The position numbers were made by a program, and so were the translations under genes. Below are positions 9,969 through 57,705 of a DNA stretch of 64,000 bases, one piece after another. Source of the DNA: Mustelus asterias (taxonomy: Eukaryota). Every line of letters begins with the position of its first letter. Positions within the stretch are counted from its first letter, which is position 1. Below the pieces are notes generated by a model, which had not been told where the DNA came from, did no database searches, and saw only the letters and a program-made list of their open reading frames with translations. The stretch is from NCBI RefSeq assembly GCF_964213995.1, contig NC_135807.1:69254001-69318000 (forward strand). Reading direction: 5' to 3'.

Positions 9969-11491
9969 GTGGGAGTTCTGATTACAAACGGCACAAAGAC
10001 ACGATCTCAATTTACATGAATAATGATTGGAATGTGAGCCTTTACAGCTAATCAAGTCTTAAAGGTCCAGACAATGTGAGTGAAAGGAACATTAAGCACA
10101 GGTTAAAGAGATGTGTATTGTCTCCAGACAGGACAGCTAGTGAGATTTAGCACATCCAGGCAGGTTGTGGGGGTTACAGATAGTGTGACATGAACCCAAT
10201 ATCCCGGTTGAGGCTGTCCTCATGTGTGCGGAACCTGGCTATCAGTCTCTGCTCAGCGACTCTGTGCTGTCGTGTGTCGTGAAGGCCGCCTTGGAGAACG
10301 CTTACCACTCACCATGGACTACTCTCCGGAATCGGTTGCATTCTTGGACACACGCATCTCCATTAAGGACGGTCACCTCAGCACTTCACTGTACCGCAAG
10401 CCCACGGATAACCTCACGATGCTCCACTTCTCCAGCTTCCACCCTAAACACGTTAAAGAAGCCATCCCCTACGGACAAGCCCTCCGTATACACAGGATCT
10501 GCTCGGATGAGGAGGATCGCAACAGACACCTCCAGACGCTGAAAGATGCCCTCATAAGAACAGGATATGGCGCTCGACTCATCAATCAACAGTTCCGACG
10601 CGCCACAGCGAAAAACCGCACCGACCTCCTCAGAAGACAAACACGGGACACGGTGGACAGAGTACCCTTCGTTGTCCAGTACTTCCCCGGAGTGGAGAAG
10701 CTACGACATCTCTTCCAGAGTCTTCAACATTTTATTGATGAAGACGAACATCTCGCCAAGGTCATCCCCACACCTTGCTTTCAAACAACCGCACAACATC
10801 AAACAGACCATTGTCCGCAGCAAACTACCCAGCCTTCAGGAGAACAGTGACCACGGCACCACACAACCCTGCCACAGCAACCTCTGCAAGACATGCCGGA
10901 TCATCGACACGGATGCCATCATCTCATGCGAAAACACCATCCACCAGTACACGGTACATACTCTTGCAACTCGGCCAACGTTGTCTACCTGTTACGCTGC
11001 AGGAAAGGATGTCCCGAGGCATGGTACATTGGGGAAATCATGCAGACGCTACGACAACGGATGAATGAACACCGCTCGACAATCACCAAGCAGGAGTGTT
11101 CTCTTCCTGTTGGGGAGCACTTCAGCGGTCACGGGCATTCAGCCTCTGATCTCTGGGTAAGCGTTCTCCAAGGCGGCCTTCACTACACACGACAGCGCAT
11201 AGTCACTGAGCAGAGACTGATAGCCAGGGTCCGCACACATGAGGACGGCCTCAACTGGGATATTGGGTTCATGTCACACTATCTGTAGCCCCCACAACCT
11301 GCCTGGATGTGCAAAATCTCACTAGCTGTCCTGTCTGGAGACAATACACATCTCTTTAACCTGTGCTTAATGCTCCACTCACATTGTCTGTACCTTTAAG
11401 ACTTGATTCGTTGTAAAGGCTCACATTCCAATCATTATTCATGTAAATTGAGTTTGTGTCTTTGTGCCCTGTTTGTAATCAGAACTCCCAC

Positions 11492-22402: not shown

Positions 22403-23641
22403 CTCACAGAATACAACATCTCGTGCCGTAAGAAGGGTGTGTGGTTTCTGTATGGATTCCCTTTGCTGATGTCTCTGAGGTTTCCCACACTGACTGAGCT
22501 CTGCAGGATTCTCCATTGGAAGCTTTCCCTGAAAAATCAGAAGAAGGTAAGTGTTTTTTTTATGTCTGATCAGAGTCAGAAATAAGTATTCCCCTCCTAA
22601 TCTGGTAGATTTAGACCAATACATTTAACTAATGGCAGATAGGTTGAATATTATTGTTAGCTTTAGGTTCCAGTTAACTCAGGAAACATCGGTTCAATGC
22701 ACTACTTTATGAGTCAAAGTCCGTGCAAACTCAGTTGAACATTAATGACCTTTGGGGATGCATGACGCAGTTTCAAAACTTGGATAAAAACAGAAAGTTC
22801 TGATTAAACTCAACAGGTCTGGCAGCATCAGTAGCGAGAAACAGAGTTAGTGTTTCGGGACTAAATGATCCTTCCACAGAACTGAATCAAGGTAGAAGTG
22901 TACAGAATTATATAATTGGAACGAGAGTGGAAGATGTGGGGCAGAATAGAAGACCAGGATTTTGGGGCAAATCCAGAAGCATTGCAACCACAGCCTTGAG
23001 TATCTTGAGTAGTGTTGAGTCACCAGATCCTTGAGCCTCCCTGAATGTATGTGGTAGCTCACCAAAAACCTCCAAGATCAAGCCACAGCACGACCACAAA
23101 CACTGTCAGAGTAGAAAGCAAAAGTAAATCAAAAGCACCCCAAGTGCAAGTTGGTTGCCTGATCCTTCAATAAAGCTAGTGAGATGTGCTGCTGACTCAT
23201 GTTCAATTGAGGGTGATTAGTACCTGTATTCAGTAGACATTTGCAGACCAAGTTTATGAAGCATGCATCAAATCTGCTAGAATGGCTTGCAGGACATATC
23301 AAAAATGACTGGCAGCATAACCAGCACCTTTTTAGGACTTTGGGGATTTTGTAGCACCAAGACCAGCTCAAAATCACTATCAGATTCTCCAACAGGGGTC
23401 AAATGGAAATTCATGTGTAATTAAATGTGTGCACATTAGCAGAGGAAACTAAATGTTCACCTGAAAAGTGAAAAGGAAACAAGCAAGGATACTAAACATT
23501 CTATGAACCAAAGTAGTCCCATTGTTGTCTATATTTTCACACAACTGATGCATGATTCACCTCATACAACATAGAGAAATAACAACTGAAAGTCCAATCT
23601 GAACAAGAATCAACATATATGCAGCTCCTAAACAATGATGT

Positions 23642-25657
23642 CTGGATGACTCGTGATATTGCGGCCCTGGTCAAGAAGAAGAAAGAGGCACATGACATGC
23701 ATAGGCAGCTGGGATCAAGTGAATCTCTTGAAGAGTATAGGGGGTGTAGGTGTAGAGTTAAGAGAGAAATCAGGAGAGCAAAAAGGAGACACGAAATTGT
23801 TTTGGCAGATAAGGCAAAAGAGAATCCAAAGAGCTTCTACAAATACATAAAGGGCAAAAGAGTAACAAGGGAGAGAGTAGGGCCTCTTAAGGATCAACAA
23901 GGTCATCTATATGCAGATCCACAAGAGATGGGTGAGATCCTAAATGAATATTTCTCATCAGTATTTACTGTTGAGAAAAGCATGGATGTTAGTGAACTTG
24001 GGGAAATAAATAGTGATGTCTTGAGGAGTGTACATATAACAGAGAAAGAGGTGCTGGAAGTCTTAAAGCGCATCAAGGTAGATAAATCGCCGGGACCTGA
24101 TGAAGTATATCCCAGGACGTTGTGGGAGGCTAGGGAGGAAATTGCGGGTCCCCTAGCCGAGATATTTGAATCATCGATAGTCACAGGTGAGGTGCCTGAA
24201 GATTGGAGAGTGGCAAATGTTGTGCCTTTGTTTAAAAAGGGCTGCAGGGAAAAGCCTGGCAACGACAGGCCAGTGAGCCTCACATCTGTGGTGGGTAAAT
24301 TGTTGGAAGGTATTTTGAGAGACAGGATCTACAGGCATTTAGAGACGCAAGGACTGATTAGGGACAGTCAGCATGGCTTTGTGAGTGGAAAATCATGTTT
24401 CACAAATTTAATTGAGTTTTTTGAAGGGGTAGCCAAGAAGGTAGATGAGGGCAGTGCAGTTGATGTTGTCTACATGGACTTTAGCAAGGCCTTTGACAAG
24501 GTACCGCATGGTAGGTTGTTGCATAAAGTTAAATCTCACGGGATCCAGGGTGAGGTATCTAAATGGATACAAAATTGACTTCTTGACAGAAGCCAGAGGA
24601 TGGTTGTAGAGAGTTGTTTTTCAAACTGGAGGTCTGTGACCAGCGGTGTGCCTCAGGGATCAGTGCTGGGCCCACTGTTATTTGTCATTTATATTAATGA
24701 TTTGGATGAGAATATAGGGGGCATGGTTAGTAAGTTTGCAGATGACACCAAGATTGGTGGCATAGTAGACAGTGAAGAAAGTTATCTCCAATTGCAACGG
24801 GATCTTGATCAATTGGGCCAGTGGGCTGACGAATGGCAGATGGAGTTTAATTTAGACAAATGCGAGGTGATGCATTTTGGTAGATTGAACCAGGGCAGGA
24901 CTTACTCAGTTAATGGTAGGGCGTTGGGGAGAGTTACAGAACAAAGAGATCTAGGGGTACATGTTCATAGCTCCTTGAAAGTGGAGTCACAGGTGGACAG
25001 AGTGGTGAAGAAGGTATTTGGCATGCTTGGTTTCATCGGTCAGAACATTGAATACGGGAGTTGGGATGTCTTGTTGAAGTTGTACAAGACGTTGGTAAGG
25101 CCGCACTTGGAATACTGTGTGCAATTCTGGTCACCCTATTATAGAAAGAATATTATTAAACTAGAAAGAGTGCAGAAAAGATTTACTAGGATGCTACCGG
25201 GACTTGATGGATTGAGTTAAAAGGAGAGGCTGAATAGACTGGGACTTTTTTCTCTGGAGCATAGGAGGCTGAGGGGTGACCTTATAGAGGTCCATAAAAT
25301 AATGAGGGGCATAGACAAGGTAGATAGTTAATATTTTTTCCCAAAGGTAGTGGAGTCTAAAACTAGAGGGCATAGGTTTAAGGTGAGAGGGGAGAGATGC
25401 AAAAGTGTCCAGAGGGGCAATGTTTTCACACAGAGGGTGGTGAGTGTCTGGAACAAGCTGCCAGAGGTAGTAGTAGAGGCGGGTACAATTTTATCTTTTA
25501 AAAAGCATTTAGATAGTTACAAGGGTACGATGGGTATCGAGGGATATGGGCCAAATGCAGGCAATTGGGATTAGCTTAGGGATTTTTAAAAAAAAGGCGG
25601 CATGGACAAGTTGGGCCGAAGGGCCTGTTTCCATGCTGTAAACCTCTATGACTCTAT
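23642..25657 (+). mobile_element. 5'-truncated CR1 LINE (RT domain and 3' tail)
   Basis: ORFs 23619..24578 and 24600..25220 contain [31 protein letters not shown] and KFADDTK, with in-frame stops. Tail (CTATGA)n; candidate TSD AATGATGT at 23634 and 25658. Confidence 0.95.
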
Positions 25658-28027: not shown

Positions 28028-28430
28028 CCCTCACAAGATCCAAACTGAGATAAAGCCCAATTCACATTCCACGTGGTGAAACATTTAAGTTAGTATTTTC
28101 TCTGCTTGAAGTGCAGGTTTCACTGACTAACGTTTATTTTCTTTGGCTCTCTCCACTCAGAGAGTTGCAGCCTATTGTGAGAATGGATGTTACTTTTTTG
28201 AAGCTTTTGGGGGGAATATTGTGTCATTCTGTAAATAAGGCTGTGTGTGTAAGTTATTTAATTAAGCTGGGGATAGGTTAAATGGAGTCATTTTGATTGA
28301 ATAATTGAGAGATGAGAAGGAATACAAGTGCTAAATGCATGCATTGTTAATGAAGCTAGGTTCAAACGTTTTTACAAATAAATATGTCAAGATTAGGAAT
28401 TTTCATTAGGGACCTGGTTTGTTCAGCTGT
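28028..28430 (+). repeat. ~400-bp direct repeat, copy 1
   Basis: Matches 29449-29849 with about two substitutions and one small indel. Confidence 0.92.
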
Positions 28431-29448: not shown

Positions 29449-29849
29449 CCCTCACAAGATCTAAACTGAGATAAAGCCCAATTCACATTCCACGTGGTGA
29501 AACATTTAAGTTAGTATTTTCTCTGCTTGAAGTGCAGGTTTCACTGACTAACGTTTATTTTCTTTGGCTCTCTCCACTCAGAGAGTTGCAGCCTATTGTG
29601 AGAATGGATGTTACTTTTTTGAAGCTTTTGGGGGGAATATTGTGTCATTCTGTAAATAAGGCTGTGTGTGTGTTATTTAATTAAGCTGGGGATAGGTTAA
29701 ATGGAGTCATTTTGATTGAATAATTGAGAGATGAGAAGGAATACAAGTGCTAAATGCATGCATTGTTAATGAAGCCAGGTTCAAACGTTTTTACAAATAA
29801 ATATGTCAAGATTAGGAATTTTCATTAGGGACCTGGTTTGTTCAGCTGT
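29449..29849 (+). repeat. ~400-bp direct repeat, copy 2
   Basis: Near-identical to 28028-28430. Confidence 0.92.
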
Positions 29850-36981: not shown

Positions 36982-37296
36982 GCGAGTGCACATTTTTGTT
37001 ACTGTCTCTGTTTTAGATTCTTGGCAAAACCTTTTGTAGCGGTAGTCCCTTTGCAGTCAAACAAAGATCCATTAGTAAATCTTAGAATAATAGAAATTTA
37101 CTTCACAGGAAGGGACTAAAGAGCCCAAGCTAAGCTTTCATTTAGTCTCATTCCCATGGCCTTTCCTCATAATATTTCCACATCTTTTTTCCACATCTTT
37201 ATCCACTTTCCTTTTAAATGCTATTATGAATTCTGCTCCCATCAGTGTTTCTGACAAAGCTTTCCAGGGATGATTCGTCTGGCCACTATACTCTGT

Positions 37297-38219
37297 AAGA
37301 AGTCTCACAACACCAGGTTAAAGTCCAACAGGTTTATTTGGTAGCAAAATCCACAAGCTTTCGGAGTGCTGCCCCTTCATCAGGTGAGTGGGAGTTCTGT
37401 TCACAAACAGGGCATATAAAGACACAAACTCAATTTACAAAATAATGGTTGGAATGCGAGTCTTTATAGGTAATCAAGTCTTAAAGGTACAGACAATGTG
37501 AGTGGAGAGAGGGTTAAGCACAGGTTAAAGAGATGTGTATTGTCTCCAAACAGGACAGTTAGTGAGATTTTGCAATCCCAGACAAGTCATGGGAGTTACA
37601 GATAGTGTAACATGAACCCAAGATCCAGGTTGAGGCCGTCCTCGCGTGCGGAACTTGGCTATCAGTGGCTTCCTGGGCTTGCAAAATCTCACTAACTGTC
37701 CTGTCTGGTGACCATACACATCTCTTTAACCTGTGCTTAACAGTTAGTGAGATTTTGCAAGCCCAGGAAGCCACTGATAGCCAAGTTCCGCGCACATGAG
37801 GACGGCCTCAACCGGGATCTTGGGTTCATGTTACACTATCTGTAACTCCCACGACTTGTCTGGGATTGCAAAATCTCACTAACTGCCCTGTCTGGAGACA
37901 ATGCACATCTCTTTAACCTGTGCTTAACGTTCGCTCCACTCACATTGTCTGTACCTTTAAGACTTGATTACCTATAAAGACTCGCATTCCAACCATTATT
38001 TTGTAAATTGAGTTTGTCTTCATATGCCCTGTTTGTGAACAGAGCTCCCACTTACCTGACGAAGGAGCAGCGCTCCGAAAGCTAATGGATTTTGCTACCA
38101 AATAAACCTGTTGGACTTTAACCTGGTGTTGTGAGACTTCTTACTGTGTTTACCCCAGTCCAACACTGGCATCTCCACATCATCACTGGCATCAACACTG
38201 GCATCTCCACATCATCACT
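37297..38219. mobile_element. ~850-bp fold-back Penelope-derived element with hammerhead motifs on both strands
   Basis: Arm 37295-37699 is the reverse complement of 37740-38144. Motifs at 37351-37387 (-) and 38052-38088 (+). Candidate TSD TACTCTGT at 37289 and 38220. Confidence 0.88.
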
Positions 38220-39414: not shown

Positions 39415-42224
39415 ATCTTCTCTCTGCCCTTTTTAAGGCATTGTCACCTTCCCTGCTGTGTGGTGTTCAGAATTGTCCACCATGCTCCAGCTGAGGCCAA
39501 GCCAGTGCCCTACAAAATTCTCACATTACCTCTTTATTTCTATATTCTGTTTTTCTATTTATGAACATAAGTTGTCAATGCACTTTTTTAACCACCTTAT
39601 CAATTTGCTGTGTCACCTTTTAAGGATTTGTATATGGGCACCAAGTTCTCTCTGCTCATCTACACTTTCCAAACCCTTGCCATTTGCATGATATCATGTT
39701 CGTCCTTCCGAAGTGCATCCACTTTGAATTCCATCTGCCATCCTTCAATCCATCTCACTATCCTTGTATGTTACCCTGAAACCTTATTTCCTAAAGGTAG
39801 TATTGGGATGACCTTATTTGCCCTCCTTGTGTCATAAGATTTATGATTTATTGAGGCAAGTCCATTTTCTAATTAACCTAATGCACCTATTTAAGCTTGA
39901 TTTAATTAATGTTCCACCGCTGATGGCCAAAAAAGCTATAAAGATTCACAGGACTTCATTTATTTTAGAGAAAGCCTATTTTCAGATTAATTTGACTTGC
40001 ATAACTGTTAAGGTCCAATCAGAATTGTTAAGTAATCTGTTCTCTGTACTAGCTGCATAAGGATATTTTGCAAGAGGTTTTTTCTTTCTCTTCCCTGTCA
40101 TTTACACTGTTATAATGACAAAGTAAAAATGAGTCACAAAATTCATTAAATATCCCTTATTAGATTCTCTAACATTTGAGCCACTTGGCCTAGAAGTTAC
40201 GGAGAACTGAAATACTTTGCAGCAATATCGACAAATGAACTGGAACAGAAATAGCAAAATTAAGATATATTGTAAATTAGAAACCATTTAAATTACAAGG
40301 GAAGGTGTAGAAGCTCAAGGTAAATAAAACCTTCAGCTTTAACAATTTATCAATGTACACAGATCCAAAGAGATTTTGATGTAATAGACAGTATAAGTAC
40401 AGTGGCTGGAACATGCATAGACTTTACAAAAGTGTTTTGCAAGTTACCACATGCAAGATTACCATAGAAGATTAAGTCATTTGTAAGTAAGTGTTCGCAA
40501 ACAGGATTAAAGTTGGTTAGACGGAAGAAAGCAGAGGAGGAGTTAAAGCAGTTTACAAAGTAATTGGAATAGGGTTGTGATGTCCCACAGCATACTGGGA
40601 AGATTCTGTTCACGGTGTGGACTAATGATTTGGACATAAACCTCAGGGGACGGCAATTGTCATTGGCAAATTATATCAAAATAGAGAGTGTAGTTAATAG
40701 TTCCAAAGAAACTGCGAAGGGGATATTGACAGGATGGAGCAATGGCTTAAAAAGTGCCAGATGGAATTTAATGTCTGTGGTTAAGCAATAACAGCAGTAT
40801 TTACAAATCTGCTAAAAATTTCCACTATTCCAGGAGCATCCACCCTCGCATTCAACACTAAGTGTGAGAGGTTTAAGAACTTCTTTAACGCTGCGATTGG
40901 AACCATTTGATCAGTTTCCTGTGCCACTTCAATCAAGGGCCAGAGAAAGAAATCTCAGGCCCTGGTGCTCTCCTTTTTCCAGGCCCCTTACCTACCCCCA
41001 CAAAATTTTCCCTTTAACCTTCTCCCTTCCCCCTCAGTCATACATGTTACCTTTGTCCTTTTGAGATTCACCAGTCAATTTACCCAACAATCACAGAAAG
41101 ATCATAGTAAAATGATAATACCCATTCTTGACATCTGGTTACAAATAATATATATGCAGCCTGGTGAATCATTAGTATTGAGAGCAGCAACAATAGAAAG
41201 GACTTTTAGTTTGAGTGCACCCCATAGGTAATCTCACCATGATTATTAAATAAGCCACAGTACAGATTTTATTTCAACAGCATCATGCTATATTGTTAAT
41301 TTGATCTCCTCAGTTATTTATAACACTGTGACAATGATGACATTGACCCTGGTGAGTGCCTCAGATGTCCTGCACATTGCACCATATGTACGGAGTGACA
41401 ATAAATACATGTTTGAGGGAAACATTCAATCGCCTCAATCCAGCTTTCAAGGATACCTTTCAGGTTTTGTTTTACATATTTTGACTACCCATTCTATATA
41501 AAAAAGCAAGACCACTTCCATGCTGCAGCTCACATTGTTTCATTGTTGTGAAATGGAAAGAGTACGGGAGGAGGAGCAGAATCCCATTCACTTGCCATTG
41601 TCTGAGCTTCCTTCTCCCTCCCTGTACACAGTACTCACCTCGATCAAGATAACTCTACCGCTAAAAGAACATTTCAGTTCCCTAGAAGTGGCTTGGCTGG
41701 GTCAGACCCGGTGTCAGGCTAAGTGAAAGCTTCCTCGGGCCTGCTCTGGCCTCTATCGGCAGAGACTCACTCCTGTTCTTTAATTTTCTATTTCTTCTCC
41801 TTGGCCTCTCGGGAGATGTTGTCATAAAGAGTTATGTGCAGTTGAAAGATTCTTGTATAGTGGTGAATGGGAATGACCAGAATAACTCATCCAGCCCATC
41901 CAATCATAGGTTCCCCTATCCTTGCTTCACCTCCAATCATAGATTCTGTCTTTAGATGGCAAGAGGAAGAGAACCTTTGATTTGAGGAACAATGACAAAC
42001 TTGGGAACCGAATGCACGGTCTTGTCTCATTGCTTTCCCCAGTAGATTGCATTCAGCAAGTCTTGCCAATTTCAAAAAAAGATAGCCCTCAGCAGCACAC
42101 CGACACTGTTGTTCTGTTCATTCACTTGTTCATTTCTTTTTCATACACAAAATGGAAGTGCAGTGCCAGATGATTTTTGCACACCAATCAGCCTGAGGGA
42201 GAGAGGAACAGACATAATAATAAT

Positions 42225-43440
42225 GGGGAACACAGAACTGGCAGAGACACTCAATCAATATTTTGCTTTGGTCTTCACAGTGGAGGACACTAGAGCCATC
42301 CCAATAGTAACAGGTAATGCAGAGGTTGTGGAAAAGGAGGAACTTAAAACAATCACCATCACTAGGGAAAAAGCGCTGAGCAATCTATTCAGATTAGAGG
42401 CAGACAAATCCCCAGGACCTGATGACCTACATCCTGGGGTCTTAAAGGAAGCGACAGCAGAAATAGTGGAGGCATTGGTTATAATATTCCCAAATTCCAA
42501 GGTTCCAGTGGATTGGAAAAAGGCTAATGTAATGCGCCTGGTTATAAAAGCAGGAAACTATCGACCAGTTAATTTAATGTTTGTTGTTGGGAAACTGTTG
42601 GAATCCATTATTAAGGAAGTAGTAATGGGATATTTGGAAAGTCAAAATACAATCCATCAGAGTCAACATGGTTTTATAAAGGGTAAATCGTGTTTGACTC
42701 GTTTGCTGGAGTTCTTTGAAGATGTAACAAGCAAAGTGGATAATGAGGGTCCTGTAGATGTAGTGTATCTGGACTTCCAAAAGGCATTTGATAAGGTGCC
42801 ACACAAGGTTTATATACAAGGAATAATCCCACGGGATTGGGGCAATATACTATCTTGGATTGAGTATTGTCTAACCAACAGAAAGCAGAGAGTGGTCATC
42901 CAGCAGTAAGGATACACCTGTAGCAAGCAATAAAAGAACTAACTTTACAAAGTAAATCAAAGAAAATGTTTAATAAAGAAACTCCATTGCACCACCACTT
43001 GGGCCATGCCCTGGGCCACACATGCTTCTCACAATCCCCGTCTGCTTTCTATTTATACCAGGTCAGCTGACCCAAACAAGAGAGAGTTGGGATAAATGGG
43101 TCTTTTTCTGGGTTGCCAAGCTGTTACGAGTGATATGCCACAGGATTTGGTCCTTGGGAGCCCCAACTATTTACAATCTATTGGTTTCACAGGTCGGCGC
43201 AACATCTAGGGCCGAAGGGCCTGTACTGCGCTGTTATGTTCTATGTTCTAAATATTAATGACTTGGATGCAGGGATGGAATGTACTATAGCCAAATTTGC
43301 AGATGACACGAAAATAGTTGGGAAAGCAAGTTGCAATGAGGAAATAAGAAATTTACAAATGAATATGGACAGGTTAGATGAGTGAGCCAAAATTTGGCAG
43401 ATGGAGTTTTACATGGGTAAGTGTGAGGTGATCCATTTGT
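42225..43440 (+). mobile_element. Decayed CR1 RT fragment with two nested small insertions
   Basis: ORF 42109..42909 has KSPGPD, QHGFIKGKSCLT and DFQKAFDKVPH; it resumes after 43087 (KFADDT near 43295). Confidence 0.85.
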
Positions 43441-44887: not shown

Positions 44888-46306
44888 ATGTCTGATTTGC
44901 TGATTTCCGTGTTGTTACTGAGAATATCTTCAAGCTTCACATACCACAAACACCGGAGGAGGTGGCTGAGTCATGTTCCAAGCATTGCTTTTCCAGTTGA
45001 TCATCCATGGATGGCTGCCACTTCCAAATACTTTTTGTGGCAAATAAATATTTCACCTTCACACAGTGCCTCATCTGTCCCATGTTTACACTTTGCGTGA
45101 AGGTCTTTCTAATCTGTTCGCATTTAGAAATTTTACTCAGTTCAGAGAGGAGTTAACCCCAGAATGCTTCTGCCAATGTATTTTAGTCAGTCTATTTCAC
45201 AATCTATTCCCTCTTTTATGAATCATAAATTGGACTCCTTTACAGAGCGCAGTAAGAACTTAATGGTAACCATTCACTAAACAGGGACAACTGATTTTCA
45301 AATGATTCCAACTACTTAAACAACACAAGATCTTTTCCACTCTGTAGAAAGAAGACTTTCTCCTGCCTGGGTGCATAATATTATTCAATATAATTATTTC
45401 ATACAAGGGTTATAACAATTGGGATTCTATTTTATCACTAACTTCACACAGTAGAAAGATCAAATGGCTCCTGAGCAACAAAATGGAATGATTGCGCAAC
45501 ATATGCCTTCACTGTCAATAAGAAGCGTTGGTGCCCTCAGGTCCCAGCTCTCTGGTGTCTCTGTGTGGTACAACTTTAAGAGGCTAGAGGACAAAGACTG
45601 GATGGTTCACAATCATATCTGTGTTTTCTTGATCAGCAAGCCTCAAAGCTCTGTTGATTTCTTCCTCTCACTACAATATATTTTCAACATCTGCTATTCA
45701 ACACAACCTTATCACGATATTTCAATACCTCAAACTCATACCAAACAGCACCAAGGTAGAGTAGGACAATAAATAAGTTGACCAGTCCCTTCCCCTAGCC
45801 CACTGGGCTAAACTTCCTCCAACGGTCTCCCCTTCCCTCGCTCTGAACTCACATCTTTCTCGAATTTTTCTCCTATTTCCCCTCATGGCCTCTGAGCTTG
45901 TTTTCTCATTGAAACCCACCTCCAGCTCCTTTGACGCTATTCCTACTCACCCCCCCATCTTGGGTCCCATGTTTGCTAATATTATTTACAGTTTTCTCTT
46001 CAGCTGCTGTCCCCATTTCAAATCTGCTATCATCATCCCTTCTTGTCACAATATCATTGCTTGACATCCCTGTTCTTGCAAGCTTCTGCCTCATCTTCAA
46101 ACCTTCTTTCCTCTCCAAAGTCTTTGAATGGCTGCTTTCTCTCAGTTTTGTATCCATCACTCCCAGAACTCTATCTTTGAATCCCTTCAATCATGTTTCA
46201 GCCCCTACCACAGTCACAAAATGGCTCTTATCAAAGACACAAATGACATCCTATGTGATTGTGGGAAAGGTAAACCCTTCCCATCCCTCTCAACCTGTCT
46301 ACAGCA

Positions 46307-48155
46307 TGTGGTGAGCCATCGTTGGTTCCCACTGGATAGTACTGAGCCAGGGTCTGGCCAGTACTACAAGGATGTACATATGTTACTGTTGGGTTGTGCT
46401 ACTTGTTGCTGTTGGGGTTAGGGTGGGGTTGTTACACCTTTGTACTGTAGTGTTGTGGTACATCCCAGTCGGGCTCCACCTCCTGGGAGAGGTATAAAGG
46501 TCCCTGCTCTGGCTGGGACCCCTCGGTCTGGGATCGTGTATATAATTATTGGCTGCTTCATTACAGTAAATAAAAGCCTTTATTTCCCGAGCATCTAGCC
46601 TCGTGTTTGATAACGCGCATCAATTTTATTTACTGTTGTTAAACTCTCCTTGAAGAAAAAAAAAGAGAGTATGGAGCAGATCCTGAAGCCGGAATGCCTT
46701 ACGTTAGATCCACATGCGGTGGGCGCCTCTAACACCTTCGACCACTGGCTGAAGTGCTTCGAAGACTACCTGGCAGCCTCCGCAGCGGTCACCACAGATG
46801 ATGACAGACTCCGGGTCCTCCATGCGAGGGTAAGCGACACTGTCTACCTCGCGATCCGCGCGGCCACCGATTATACAAAGGCCCTCGAGCTTCTGAAGAA
46901 GCGTTATATCAAACCGCCCAATGAAATACATGCTCGTTACCTCTTAGCCACTCGACGACGGCAGTCTGGCGAAACGATGGAGGAATATGCGAACGAGCTC
47001 CTACAGCTAGCCAGGGGCTGTAACTGCAAAGCTGTGTCGGCTGAGCAGAGCATGAACGACCTCGCCCGAGATGCGTTTGTGGCGGGAGTCGGATCGTCGT
47101 ACATTCGACTTAAACTATTGGAGAAAGGTAACCTTGACCTTACCCAGGCAATCGAGCTAGCAGAGATGCTGGAGACGGCCTCCAAAAGCTTAGTATTGTA
47201 TCCGGAAGACCACGTGGAGACAACGTGGCAGGAGCAGTCGCCAATCCCTCCTCGTCCCTCGGGTTCGAAATGCTGCGTAATGGCGTGCTCACACTCGGGC
47301 CAGACGACGGCAGCAGATCCGGGCGGCTCGCGGTGTTACTTCTGTGGGGGAGCGAAGCACACTCGGCAATGGTGTCCCGCTAAGGCTGTGTTGTGCTCCG
47401 CCTGCGGTAAGAAAGGGCACTATTCGAAAGTGTGCAGATCTAAATCTAGGAACGGCAGTGTGGCCTGCGATTCTTCAGAGCTCGGCTCTTTGTCGTCGAA
47501 ATCATCAAGGGGTTCGTCCACGTGCGAGGCCAGGACGACGCCATTACGGTCGACGGAGTCGGAGGTGTGTGACCACCAGGGGTCGCTGAGTTTGGCGCCA
47601 TCACCCACGTGCGACTTATGGGAGCGGCCATGTTGGTCGGCACCGACCGCGAACGACCAGCAGGGGTCCTCCTCGTCGATTTCAGCTGCCTGCAGTGGCG
47701 CTCATGAACCAACGGTGGCGTCGAACATCCTGGACCAGGCCAAGCCTCATAGACTTGACAAATCTATGATGAACTTATAGACTGATGACACTTTATTCTG
47801 TTTTTTTGTACCCCGCCGGCCTTTGTTCTCAAAGGAGGGGTGAATGTGGTGAACCATCGTTGGTTCCCACTGGATAGTACTGAGCCAGGGTCTGGCCAGT
47901 ACTACAAGGATGTACATATGTTACTGTTGGGTTACTTGTTGCTGTTGGGGTTAGGGTGGGGTTGTTACACCTTTGTACTGTAGTGTTGTGGTACATCCCA
48001 GTCGGGCTCCGCCTCCTGGGAGAGGTATAAAAGTCCCTGCTCTGGCTGGGACCCCTCAGTCTGGGATCGTGTATATAATTATTGGCTGCTTCATTACAGT
48101 AAATAAAAGCCTTTATTTCCCGAGCATCTAGCCTCGTGTTTGATAACGCGCATCA
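46307..48155 (+). mobile_element. Young non-autonomous Gypsy-like LTR retrotransposon (LTR-gag-LTR, pol deleted)
   Basis: LTRs at 46307-46622 and 47845-48155 (TG...CA) differ by about four substitutions and one 5-bp indel. 5-bp TSD CAGCA at 46302-46306 and 48156-48160. PPT AAAGGAGGGG at 47831. Confidence 0.95.
46671..47780 (+). CDS. gag: Gag (capsid plus two CCHC zinc knuckles), uninterrupted, 369 aa from ATG
   Basis: CYFCGGAKHTRQWC and CSACGKKGHYSKVC knuckles; RQSGETMEEY MHR-like segment; ends before any protease D[ST]G motif. Confidence 0.88.
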   Translation: MEQILKPECLTLDPHAVGASNTFDHWLKCFEDYLAASAAVTTDDDRLRVLHARVSDTVYLAIRAATDYTKALELLKKRYIKPPNEIHARYLLATRRRQSGETMEEYANELLQLARGCNCKAVSAEQSMNDLARDAFVAGVGSSYIRLKLLEKGNLDLTQAIELAEMLETASKSLVLYPEDHVETTWQEQSPIPPRPSGSKCCVMACSHSGQTTAADPGGSRCYFCGGAKHTRQWCPAKAVLCSACGKKGHYSKVCRSKSRNGSVACDSSELGSLSSKSSRGSSTCEARTTPLRSTESEVCDHQGSLSLAPSPTCDLWERPCWSAPTANDQQGSSSSISAACSGAHEPTVASNILDQAKPHRLDKSMMNL

Positions 48156-48444
48156 CAGCATTTGATAGTTGACTGCACCTTCCTCCTCCGATACCTGTCC
48201 ACCTGTCATCCAGTGGGGTGGGACTGCAATGGCTTCTCTTCCCAATCCCATTGTTACCTCTGGTGCTCCTGCTGTTCTTGGCCGCTCCTATTTCTAATCC
48301 ACATGCTGCCCCTCAGCACCATCATCTGAAAACAATTTTCACAGGTACACTCTCAGCAGCCAGCTCTACCCCAGCACCATCACTCTCGACTTCTGTCTCA
48401 GTACTATTCCTAAATTATCATCTGCTGGTCTGAAATCCAATACT

Positions 48445-51557: not shown

Positions 51558-51820
51558 GATGTGGCAGCTTTCAGCCAGTGGCACAAATATATGGATGCCT
51601 TGTGCAACAGTTTGATTGAACAGCTTTCTACTGGCACTCTTAGCAATCTAAAGCTGGTTGGATTGCTTATTTTTTTAACATTAAAAATTTAGTAGCAGCC
51701 TTCCTAAATACTCTATTGAGGTGAATTTTCTTGTGGGTTTTCATACCTGTCTGCTACAGTTGAAAGATGTGCAGTGAGTATGCATTTCTCTTGTTTTATT
51801 TCAATGTTTCCTTTTCACAG

Positions 51821-52061
51821 ACAAGAGGGAGAGCCTCCAGTTGAAAATGGCTGGATTCCGTATATCGGTTGTGCTTTAGAGTTTGGTGCAGATCCTCTGA
51901 AGTTTCTGCAAACTCGCCAGAAGAAATACGGTGATGCTTTTACATGTAAAATAGCTGGGAACTTCATCACTTTCATCACTGACCCCTTCTCATACAGCTC
52001 TGTAATTCGACACGGAAAAAATCTTGATTTCCAGACCATTGCAATAAAGATTTCAAGAAGG
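51821..52061 (+). CDS. CYP7A1-like exon 2 (241 nt)
   Basis: cttttcacAG|A CAA GAG GGA GAG CCT CCA; QEGEPPVENGWIPYIGCALEFGADPLKFLQ...KISRR|GTAAGA. Same length as exon 2 of human CYP7A1. Confidence 0.95.
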
Positions 52062-55150: not shown

Positions 55151-55346
55151 CGTGCAGCACAAAACAGTAATGTGTTAAAGACAGCTCCCATTTGTTTGCA
55201 TTGCTCGCAAAAGTGGTATTTTTGCTTATACTGAGACAAATGCAATTCTTTCTGAGCTACGATGAGCAAGAATGCTAATGGTAAATATTGATTTCACTTA
55301 AATTCCCTGTATAACATAAAACAATATTCCATTTTGTCTTCCACAG

Positions 55347-55957
55347 GTATTTGGTCATGTAGATTTTACTGATGCTAAATATGGGGTAAGTTATGAAGAG
55401 ATACATCAAATTTTCAACAGGACCCTACAGGGATTCTCCTTGGGCCCTCTGACTTCAAGTATGATGATAAATCTTCAGTTTGTAATGTTACAAAACAAGA
55501 AATCATCAGACTCCAGCAAATGGACCACCGAAAGCCTTTGTGCATTTTCAAACAGGATAATGTTTGAAGCTGGGTACTTAACACTCTTTGGAAAAAATGA
55601 AAAAGCAATGAAAGAAAACAATACTGAAAAGGTAAAGGCACAGTGTGCTGCCATTCAGTCTGTCATGAAGAATTTTACAGTGTTTGACAATTTATTTCCT
55701 GTTTTAGCTGGTGGCATTCCGTTATTGTTTGTCAAAGCTGCCAAGCAATCAAGAATGGCCCTAGCACAAGCATTATTGCACAATAACCTACGGCAGAATG
55801 ACAGTAAATCTGACCTCATAGAGGAAAGAATGAACCTTTTTGATCGTTCACCTGCACTTGATGAACTCAGCAAGGGGAAGACTCATGTCACAATGCTGTG
55901 GGCTTCACAGGCTAATACGCTTCCAGCTACCTTTTGGAGTGTTTATTATTTAATAAG
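55347..55957 (+). CDS. CYP7A1-like exon 3 (611 nt, includes I helix)
   Basis: ttccacAG|GTA TTT GGT CAT; VFGH...TLQG...MFEAGYLTLFG...MLWASQANTLPATFWS..LI(R)|GTACTG. Confidence 0.95.
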
Positions 55958-57705
55958 GTACTGTTACTCTCAACTTTCATAATAGAAGTTTGATCCACTT
56001 GTAGCAATTTTAAACCTGAACACTCTGAACATAATCTGTCTGTTTTATTGCCATAATCATTTATGCCTCTTTGCTTCAACCAGCTTTCTAATGAATTCAT
56101 GCTGACATGGGAATTATGCTTTTTTTTAAACCTTCACCGCCTGTCTGTAATCTGCTGCAATGGATAGCCTGTCCATTGTAAATAGGGTGAAATCAGGCAG
56201 GTACTATAATGGGTGGGCAATCTGCTCTGCCAGAATACTATGAGTGGTGAAGACAAGGATTTTTTTCATGGTTTCTGCTGGAATCACAAACTCTGATAAT
56301 GTATTCCACAAGCTCACAACCATTTTCCCAGCCTACAAAAGGTAGGTTCCAGTGTGTGTGGAGTAGGAAAGTCCCAGAAAATGACATTGGATCAGGATCC
56401 TGACATCATTCTACCTAATTCTGGCTTTCCCCAGGGTGGTTGAAGGTGAGTGGGAATCCTGCCTTGGATCTGTTGGGTAAGAAATATGGAAATGTTTCAG
56501 CTAATTAAGAGGGCAATTAAGACCTGCTTCAAGCCTGAATCCTAGCCTTTCCAGCTTATCAGCAACATCCCAGGGTTTCCAAGGTGAATGTACAATGGAA
56601 GGGGCTTTTTCAGTGACAAGCTGGAAGCCTTTGATCAGTTACACTGAAGAGCTGCAACTATAGCTATTGACAGCCAGTTATTCAAAGCATTTCTCTGAGT
56701 GAATCTCCCTAACCAATGGAATTAAGAATTCAGAAATAGACAGAGGATGGTCTGAGAAGGATGGTAAGTTAAGAGTGGGCGAATTTGGGGACAAATCAGG
56801 TATTTAAAGGGAATGAATGATTGGATTAAGTGAGATAAAAAGTGATAGACAGGAAAAGTAAGAAAAATAATTTTAATTTTAATAAAATATCCCAAAACAA
56901 CTCACTACAGAAGAATGCACTTATTCGTTGAATGGTGCTGGCTGGGCCGGCATTTCTTGTCCATCCGTGGGGGCATTGCTGTGGATCTGGAGTCATGTGT
57001 AGGTCAAACCAGGTAAGGATGGCAGATTTCCTTCCCTAAAGGACATTAGTTAACCCCAGATGGGTTTTACAACAATCAACAATGGTTTCATGGTCATCAG
57101 TAGATTCTGAATTCCAGATTTTTATTGAATTCTAATTTCATCATCTGCCATGGTGAGATTCGAACCTGGGTCCCCAGAGCATTACCCTGGGTCTCTGGAT
57201 TACCAGTCCAGAGCCAATACCACTACACCACCGCCTCCCCAATTGTTCATTAATTGCTCAATTTCTGGGCCAGAGAGATAGATTGCAAACATTAACGATC
57301 ATCATGTTGTTAAACAAGGGGCTGCTGGGGATGATGCTTAAGGTGTTAATTTCTAAACCTGTTGAACTTAATTTTCAATTGATCTGAAAATGTAGCAACT
57401 TCATGAAAATGACAGGGAGATTAAAGGTGAGATTCCATTTCTGTAAAGCCGGTGATGGAGCAGTGCAATTTGTGCAACAACTTGTGGCGATTTGCAATTC
57501 TTTCTCGCCACAAGGTTAATTTGCACACTAATAATGAGATGTGTCACTAGCATGTCATTATTGTTTTGCAGCAAATTCTGGGACCACTAAGGTTTGGTGA
57601 CAGGGAATGCATCAGATTTTTAATAACTGGATAGAGAACTATCATACTTGCTGTCTGTGACATATTATTCACACCATCATTTATCTGGTTCTACATAATC
57701 TGCAG

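What the first reader, a model, noticed from the sequence alone, without database searches (positions are those of the whole stretch)
46563..46636. LTR element lacks a tRNA PBS; its PBS position is complementary to its own LTR poly(A) region
Seen: the 5' LTR ends ...GCATCA at 46622 and is followed by A-TTTTATTTACTGT (46624-46636) rather than TGG. This 13-mer is the exact reverse complement of ACAGTAAATAAAA (46563-46575) inside the LTR, which contains AATAAA. The 3' end of that segment would pair one base from the LTR edge, pointing the right way for minus-strand strong-stop synthesis. TATA-like boxes lie at 46493 and 46539, the latter 24 nt upstream of the 13-mer. Known: Tf1/sushi-type elements self-prime from their own 5' RNA, and some retroviruses hide the 5' poly(A) signal in a hairpin. 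Inference: one duplex could both self-prime and silence the 5'-LTR poly(A) site, while the 3' LTR has no partner and stays usable.
Basis: partly seen in the sequence, partly recalled or inferred. Interest (0 to 1): 0.8.

Follow-up and report, generated by a model that had tools for sequence, protein, structure and literature searches.

The report
Self-priming Gypsy lineage outside chromoviruses
This is a shortened copy of a young jumping gene whose whole lineage, from cartilaginous fish to marine metagenomes, has at the usual tRNA landing site a sequence that pairs with its own end-repeat, mostly over the poly(A) signal, so it likely starts copying itself with a cut piece of its own RNA, a trick that likely arose separately from the known yeast and fish cases.

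Summary
Observation confirmed. 46307-48155 is an internally deleted copy (gag only, 5-bp TSD, LTRs about 99% alike) of a ~4.7-kb Ty3/Gypsy family with no chromodomain. The duplex between the PBS position and the LTR is a lineage trait. It holds in 34 of 38 families (106 of 115 loci), with 32 different arm 11-mers, against 5% of cross-family pairings. None of the 34 has TGG at the LTR edge. A compensatory change exists even inside this family. The RT tree puts the lineage beside a TGG-PBS lineage and rejects grouping it with fungal/vertebrate chromoviruses (AU p=0.0001). Self-priming in some form is likely (~0.9); no cleavage or RNA end was observed. Correction: the promoter kept in all six host-genome families is TATA 46493 plus initiator ~46525, not TATA 46539. 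The primer would then be an internal-cut ~51-nt fragment ending at the poly(A) hexamer, not Tf1's first 11 nt. The hexamer lies in the arm in 25 of 34 families, so masking is plausible but untested. Not found in nine literature searches, though key papers were not held. This scan noted the same signature before on other DNA (e1-7857539, e1-7805054).

The parts
46302..46306 (.). Left target-site duplication CAGCA
   Evidence: Same 5-mer at 48156-48160
46307..46622 (+). 5' LTR, 316 nt, TG...CA
   Evidence: Differs from the 3' LTR by 4 substitutions and one 5-nt indel
46493..46499 (+). Upstream TATA box, likely the working promoter
   Evidence: TATA plus TCAGT 26-36 nt apart in 51 of 59 loci of six host-genome families
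46523..46527 (+). Initiator position; predicted start site ~46525. This LTR carries A>G there; the 3' LTR keeps TCAGT
   Evidence: start site inferred, not mapped
46539..46546 (+). Second TATA-like box, specific to this family
   Evidence: 29 of 29 loci of this family, 0 of 30 in five sister families
46563..46575 (+). LTR arm (candidate self-primer 3' part), holding AATAAA 46569-46574
   Evidence: Exact complement of 46624-46636; covaries across families
46576..46579 (+). Conserved (G/A)CCT just after the arm; predicted cut between 46575 and 46576
   Evidence: G or A 33, C 31, C 31, T 29 of 34 families; cut inferred
46624..46636 (+). PBS-position 13-mer, one base after the LTR's CA
   Evidence: Perfect duplex in 26 of 28 printed family junctions; one-base spacer is A in 30 of 34 families
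46671..47780 (+). gag with two CCHC-type knuckles, running across the deletion to a stop
   Evidence: weak zinc-knuckle hits below cut-off
47770..47774 (+). Deletion junction with 5-nt microhomology; about 2.9 kb holding protease, RT, RNase H and integrase is missing
   Evidence: Comparison with longer family copies
47831..47840 (+). Polypurine tract, 4 nt before the 3' LTR
   Evidence: Same tract in 11 of 11 two-LTR copies
47845..48155 (+). 3' LTR, 311 nt, with second copy of the arm and AATAAA (48102-48107)
48156..48160 (.). Right target-site duplication CAGCA

Best explanation
The 13-base stretch after the 5' LTR pairs with a stretch of the element's own LTR in place of a tRNA site, and it likely lets the element prime reverse transcription with a fragment of its own RNA that would be cut just after the poly(A) signal. 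Steps: (1) shown: a Ty3/Gypsy lineage without chromodomain or TGG site, with a covarying duplex of at least 13 bp whose LTR-side 3' end faces one base past the LTR's CA. (2) Inferred: in the host-genome families transcription starts at the TATA/initiator ~46525, so the arm lies inside R, 38-50 nt from the cap. (3) Inferred: the arm pairs with the PBS as the RNA is made, burying AAUAAA and helping to prevent early polyadenylation at the 5' LTR. (4) Inferred by analogy with Tf1: in the particle the RNase H domain cuts between the arm's last A and the conserved (G/A)CCU, leaving a capped ~51-nt primer. (5) Inferred: RT copies the ~48-nt loop as minus-strand strong-stop DNA and transfers to the 3' end through the 15-25 nt between hexamer and poly(A) site. 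(6) Inferred: plus-strand copying of the primer rewrites the PBS each cycle, which would explain how fast the arms change together. Self-priming in any geometry about 0.9; this geometry about 0.55.
For: Duplex score >=10 in 34 of 38 families and 106 of 115 loci, against 75 of 1406 cross-family pairings and 11 of 190 shuffles; own LTR strictly best of 38 in 33 families. Positions -5 to -11 are 97-100% Watson-Crick with 3-4 pair types per column, and there are 32 distinct 11-mers. In this family 9 copies carry C at arm -9 with G in the PBS and 20 carry T with A, with no mixed copy among 29. Where both LTRs are on a contig, LTR identity ends at or within a few bases of that CA, which anchors the register independently. 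0 of 34 have TGG in the first 8 nt; two other Gypsy lineages of the same genome do, and one matches a tRNA-Thr 3' end over 10 nt. The bases after the arm are conserved, and a stem of at least 4 bp starts there in 24 of 34 families (9.9 expected; 0 of 300 shuffle sets). TATA plus initiator is kept in all six host-genome families. Pairing runs on to -13 in 91% and -15 in 71%, beyond an 11-nt primer.
Against: No RNA end, cut or primer-cDNA joint was seen; only assembled contigs were available. The 28 duplex-bearing families from metagenome and MAG contigs show no such TATA/initiator pair, and a pyrimidine-purine step at -11 or -10 occurs in 26 of 34, which fits a short Tf1-like primer instead. 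The window's own 5' LTR has lost the initiator A. The side helices that Tf1 needs were not found, and the window copy lacks the small stem (2 bp). 9 of 34 arms have no canonical hexamer. 4 families fail: one has a 13-bp duplex shifted by 5 nt, and three have no definable LTR end, one of them with a TGG 2 nt after a CA. The tRNA set tested was partial: 48 sequences of 9 amino-acid types; it also missed the second positive control. Family representatives were the best-scoring members, which lifts the 34 of 38.
Confidence: 0.55

Rival explanations
1. Tf1-style self-priming: transcription starts at the arm itself (about 46565-46566), and the primer is the first 10-11 nt of the RNA. The 5' poly(A) signal would then be too close to the cap to work, and masking would not matter.
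For: G at arm -10 in 30 of 34 families and A at -11 in 22; pyrimidine-purine step at -11 or -10 in 26 of 34. A TATA box 26 nt before 46565 in 29 of 29 loci of this family. Tf1's primer is the first 11 bases (PMC7175516, passages).
Against: That TATA is absent from five sister families (0 of 30 loci), which keep the upstream TATA/initiator. Pairing extends to -13/-15 in most families and to 22 nt with mismatches in one. The same pyrimidine-purine step is as common at -7 (19 of 34) as at -11 (15).
Confidence: 0.25
2. The duplex serves only to mask the 5' poly(A) signal or to shape the leader, and priming uses some other primer (tRNA fragment, other host RNA, protein).
For: Hexamer inside the arm in 25 of 34 families and in the loop in only 2; predicted buried at the 5' end. 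An upstream start makes R contain the signal twice, which calls for suppression (PMC12789967, passages).
Against: The partner sits exactly at the PBS position with a fixed one-base spacer, where a masking helix could sit anywhere. 9 families keep the duplex without a canonical hexamer. 32 different sequences that each track their own LTR cannot match one host RNA.
Confidence: 0.1
3. Self-priming without an internal cut: the 3' R copy of the arm, or a short transcript ended at the 5' poly(A) site, pairs with the PBS and is trimmed from its 3' end back to the duplex.
For: With a start at ~46525 the arm is in R at both RNA ends, and it ends only ~20 nt before the expected poly(A) site. It would explain why the primer end coincides with the hexamer.
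Against: The 5' copy is 48 nt from the PBS and is predicted to pair first (0.85-1.0). Conserved bases and a stem right after the arm look more like a recognised cut site.
Confidence: 0.1

Closest known systems
Tf1/Tf2 (Schizosaccharomyces pombe), Tj1 and the Tf1/sushi group of chromoviruses
   Same: Ty3/Gypsy domain order; no tRNA PBS; PBS position complementary to the element's own LTR in the orientation needed for minus-strand priming (PMC7175516, PMC4600332, PMC10085805, passages).
   Different: No chromodomain or Tf2-type SH3 domain (0 of 34); RT outside chromoviruses; duplex 13-20 bp against 11; the three-duplex 'pretzel' not detected; arm predicted to be internal to R; arm ends on the poly(A) hexamer.
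Plant Tcn1 (chromovirus) and TAR/Houba/Osr-1 (Ty1/copia), predicted self-primers
   Same: Self-priming predicted from sequence alone, including outside Tf1/sushi (PMC6317226, passages), so repeated origins have precedent.
   Different: Different superfamily or clade and plant hosts; no poly(A)-signal overlap mentioned in the passages seen.
Retroviral 5' poly(A) occlusion (HIV-1 polyA hairpin)
   Same: Poly(A) signal in R buried in a helix at the 5' end (PMC12789967, passages).
   Different: HIV's hairpin is local and can form at both ends, and priming uses tRNA (recalled). Here the partner is the PBS position, outside the LTR.
Mag-type Gypsy elements with a TGGCGACGAG site, and Cigr-1 of Ciona (both labels recalled)
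   Same: Nearest sampled RT neighbour (SH-aLRT 99.4); two-knuckle gag. Cigr-1 is recalled as a ~4.2-kb single-ORF element with SURL-like gag and appears as a metazoan Gypsy clade in PMC6238403 and PMC8556966 (passages).
   Different: The sampled neighbours carry a TGG site. No named reference sequence was available, so identity with the Cigr-1 clade is a lead only.

Membership tests
Ty3/Gypsy LTR retrotransposon | LTRs TG...CA, short TSD, PPT | tested here: met
   5-bp TSD exact in 9 of 11 two-LTR copies, one mismatch in 2
Ty3/Gypsy LTR retrotransposon | gag-PR-RT-RH-IN order; RT closest to Ty3 among solved structures | tested here: met
   Met in longer family copies; the window copy itself lacks pol
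Tf1/sushi chromoviruses | Chromodomain at the integrase C-terminus | tested here: not met
   0 of 34 aligned relatives hit Chromo or SH3_Tf2-1 (31 of them include the integrase core); a control element hits both
Tf1/sushi chromoviruses | RT groups with fungal/vertebrate chromoviruses | tested here: not met
   AU p=0.00013 against that grouping and 0.025 against grouping with all 16 database rows (000 replicates, below the advised 10,000). Stand-ins were used; Tf1 and sushi-ichi themselves were not in the tree
Tf1/sushi chromoviruses | PBS complementary to own LTR, no tRNA site | tested here: met
Tf1/sushi chromoviruses | Self-primer is the RNA's 5' end | tested here: inconclusive
   Promoter motifs point 38 nt upstream in host-genome families; no RNA ends available
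Tf1/sushi chromoviruses | Three-duplex 'pretzel' around the PBS | tested here: not met
   U5-end helix 4.44 against 4.60 shuffled (46 of 60 sets reach it); post-PBS helix 5.31 against 5.01 (2 of 60, marginal); a simple helix score, not a full fold
Tf1/sushi chromoviruses | RNase H cleavage makes the primer | not testable with these tools
   Needs biochemistry
tRNA-primed Gypsy lineages (Mag-type) | TGG-led PBS matching a tRNA 3' end | tested here: not met
   0 of 34 families with TGG at the LTR edge; best match to 48 host tRNA-like sequences 5-8 nt, none at a 3' end (partial tRNA set)
Cigr-1 clade | RT/RH monophyly with Cigr-1 | not testable with these tools
   No reference sequence found:

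The most novel reading that the evidence does not exclude
A widespread animal Ty3/Gypsy lineage evolved tRNA-independent priming separately from Tf1/sushi, and does it differently: one RNA helix inside R first hides the 5' poly(A) signal and is then cut right behind AAUAAA to give a long capped primer, so the poly(A) signal itself is the primer's 3' end.
Probability: 0.35. Interest if true: 0.8.

Novelty: new variant of a known kind. Interest (0 to 1): 0.62.

Why it matters
Self-primed reverse transcription has been worked out in one yeast element and is treated as the mark of one chromovirus group, with a few plant predictions beside it. A second large animal lineage, next to tRNA-primed elements in the tree, would make it a repeatable switch and give a natural series of 30-odd covarying substrates for asking how an RNase H domain picks a cut in an RNA-RNA helix. 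If the primer end is the poly(A) signal, it links two problems every LTR element has: 5' poly(A) suppression and priming. Such elements would also lie outside control by tRNA 3' fragments (inference). Annotation tools that need a tRNA PBS would score these high-copy elements as defective.

Tried and rejected
RNA evidence: no RNA holder listed; the two 'RNA?' runs were contigs of other organisms with small word shares. They gave no starts, ends or poly(A) tails and say nothing on start site or expression.

Clade name: motif look-up in the supplements of PMC6238403 found no sequences (file 2 unreadable, file 4 cut). Searches for Cigr gave only clade lists. Cluster look-ups gave hosts (ray, corals) but no element names.

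Outgroups: no relative in viral contigs. 0 of 6 Chromo-hit regions of the host genome had an RT nearby, and SH3_Tf2-1 hits were mostly decayed, so chromovirus stand-ins came. The atlas look-up gave no answer. The first tree run returned nothing. One search was a mis-aimed alignment and is not used.

Papers not held: Levin 1995 and 1996, Lin and Levin 1997 and 1998, Atwood-Moore 2006, Esnault and Levin 2015.

Rejected readings: chance match (and cross-family control); separate non-autonomous family (this junction in 1 of 30 loci); half-tRNA priming (PBS sequences differ by family and follow their own LTR); Tf1 pretzel; TATA 46539 as the lineage promoter.

Full report
1. Observation. The window holds an LTR element at 46307-48155 with LTRs of 316 and 311 nt (4 substitutions, one 5-nt indel), TSD CAGCA and a polypurine tract at 47831-47840. 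After the 5' LTR's CA come one A and the 13-mer 46624-46636, the exact reverse complement of 46563-46575, which includes AATAAA at 46569-46574. In 20,000 LTR shuffles the longest match at this anchor was 10 nt. The helix is predicted with probability 0.85-1.0 per pair. Its 3' end on the LTR side faces position 46624, the right orientation for minus-strand synthesis.

2. What the element is. The ORF 46671-47780 is a gag with two CCHC-type knuckles. A DNA search scored 40 of 3,054 candidates at 97% or more, and a gag search scored 150 of 16,496, all at 97% or more; both are lower bounds. Of 12 fetched copies, 11 show both LTRs: 9 are about 4.7 kb and 2 are 5.4-5.5 kb. One copy scanned carries protease, RT, RNase H and integrase in Ty3/Gypsy order. 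The window copy has lost about 2.9 kb at a 5-nt microhomology; that junction was seen in 1 of 30 loci. The closest named proteins are from rays and catsharks (74-83%), then corals, a sea anemone and a sea cucumber (61-63%). I infer a cartilaginous-fish host.

3. The duplex is a lineage trait. In the family, 26 of 28 printed junctions keep all 13 pairs; 2 of 30 loci were not printed because the junction motif was altered. I then took 89 metagenome and MAG loci, of which 54 had a gag start at least 90 nt from the contig end, plus 60 host-genome loci and the window: 115 loci in 38 families. RT-core identity to this family runs from 48 to 73%. A duplex score of 10 or more is reached by 34 of 38 families (best member taken) and 106 of 115 loci. 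Controls: 75 of 1,406 cross-family pairings and 11 of 190 shuffles with the same freedom of junction choice. The own LTR is strictly the best partner in 33 of 38. Positions -5 to -11 of the arm are 97-100% Watson-Crick with 3-4 pair types each; pairing falls to 91% at -13, 71% at -15 and 50% at -16. The 34 families have 32 different arm 11-mers. Inside this family a T-A to C-G swap at -9 separates 9 copies from 20 with no mixed copy, and similar swaps occur in other families. Where both LTRs lie on one contig, their identity ends at or within a few bases of the CA before the PBS, so the register does not rest on the pairing. The four failures: one has a 13-bp duplex shifted by 5 nt, and three have no definable LTR end, one of them with a TGG near a CA.

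4. No tRNA site. None of the 34 has TGG in the first 8 nt. Best matches of the six host-genome PBSs to 48 host tRNA-like sequences are 5-8 nt, none at a 3' end. Two other Gypsy lineages in the genome have TGG sites, and one matches a tRNA-Thr 3' end over 10 nt; the other had no match, which shows the tRNA set is incomplete.

5. Features around the predicted cut. The arm ends in A at each of its last three positions in 33-34 of 34 families and is followed by (G/A)CCT in most. A stem of 4 bp or more starts at that point in 24 of 34 families against 9.9 expected (0 of 300 shuffle sets), but the window copy has only 2 bp. The Tf1 side helices described in PMC10085805 (passages) were not detected: one at shuffle level, one marginal. 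AATAAA (13) or ATTAAA (12) lies in the arm's last 8 nt in 25 of 34 families, and a hexamer lies in the loop in only 2. The hexamer is predicted 0.00-0.02 unpaired at the 5' end and 0.10-0.51 at the 3' end.

6. Where transcription starts. All six host-genome families keep a TATA box with TCAGT 26-36 nt downstream (51 of 59 loci). The initiator A lies 51-55 nt before the arm's end in five families and 74-75 in one. The box at 46539 is confined to this family. That predicts a start at ~46525 and an arm internal to R. Against it: the window's 5' LTR has lost that A, the 28 other families show no such promoter, and G at -10 (30 of 34) with a pyrimidine-purine step at -11/-10 (26 of 34) would suit a start at the arm. 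Contig data could not decide.

7. Phylogeny. The lineage is one clade in a 37-row RT tree (support 0.84; one short row dropped; five host-genome families had no RT in their loci). In a 38-row tree with 16 database rows found from a chromodomain-bearing element (8 with a Pfam chromodomain; two short rows dropped; rooted on an unidentified distant RT), the 15 sampled members group at SH-aLRT 90.7 and join the TGG-site lineage at 99.4. The fungal, vertebrate and protist chromovirus rows group apart at 99.5. Forcing the lineage with those rows is rejected (AU p=0.00013), and with all 16 rows more weakly (p=0.025; 5,000 replicates). None of 34 relatives hits Chromo or SH3_Tf2-1. An origin separate from Tf1/sushi is the simplest reading; it rests on about 210 RT residues and stand-in references.

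8. Mechanism. Shown: anatomy, covariation, no TGG site, tree position. Inferred: start at ~46525, pairing during transcription that buries AAUAAA, an RNase H cut at 46575/46576 as in Tf1 (PMC7175516 and PMC5341516, passages), a capped ~51-nt primer, strand transfer through the 15-25 nt after the hexamer, and rewriting of the PBS from the primer at each cycle. Odds: this geometry 0.55, Tf1-like short primer 0.25, trimmed 3' copy 0.1, masking only 0.1.

9. Literature. Nine full-text searches showed self-priming for Tf1/sushi, fungal relatives, Tcn1 and TAR copia, unexplained non-tRNA sites in Skipper, GalEa and bivalve TRIMs, and nothing on a non-chromovirus animal Gypsy lineage or on a primer overlapping the poly(A) signal. 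I saw matched passages only of PMC3601003, PMC6317226, PMC6238403 (plus supplement hits; one file unreadable, one cut), PMC4600332, PMC3670739, PMC5341516, PMC6934838, PMC5006619, PMC10085805, PMC7175516, PMC8556966, PMC12789967 and PMC2864245. The primary Levin papers were not held. Butler 2001, the Cigr-1 paper, GyDB and Repbase Reports were not seen, so an earlier description cannot be excluded. Earlier notes of this scan report the same signature in other genomes; they are not independent support.

10. Verdict. A real, lineage-wide feature. It works like Tf1 self-priming in all likelihood but is not a member of the Tf1/sushi group. New variant of a known kind; interest 0.62.

Noticed in passing
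L108, L112, L117, L119, L129, L134/L135, L160, about 15-35 nt upstream of the LTR arm: A pyrimidine run ending in CAG, like a 3' splice acceptor, lies just upstream of the arm in several non-host families (read by eye). It could mean cis- or trans-splicing sets the RNA's 5' part near the primer.
   Followed up: no
L293:1026-1175: A chromodomain-bearing element has a 9-nt LTR match to its PBS position starting about 35 nt after a TATA box and holding no AATAAA (read by eye): the Tf1-type geometry, as a single contrast case.
   Followed up: partly
window 46525: The 5' LTR has G where the 3' LTR and most family copies have the initiator A, which may weaken this copy's promoter.
   Followed up: partly
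window 51813-52061 and 55320-55979: Cytochrome P450 exons on the + strand; CYP7-like by recall. The element lies about 3.6 kb upstream of the first exon seen, in the same orientation.
   Followed up: partly
window 28028-28430 and 29449-29849: A ~400-nt direct repeat, 98-100% alike, 1.42 kb apart and without TG...CA ends; looks like a recent local duplication.
   Followed up: partly
window 10080-11382 and 37286-38152: Two elements with long inverted arms (227 nt, 95-96%) of a repeat family present several times in the window; class not determined.
   Followed up: no
window 23583-24578 and 42046-42909: RT fragments, probably of LINE-type repeats.
   Followed up: no
L153-L161: Animal-type Gypsy elements of this lineage sit in contigs filed as bacterial MAGs, likely host contamination.
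   Followed up: no
G000: Chromoviruses look scarce in this genome: 17 Chromo hits, none of 6 fetched with an RT nearby, while this lineage has at least six families.
   Followed up: partly
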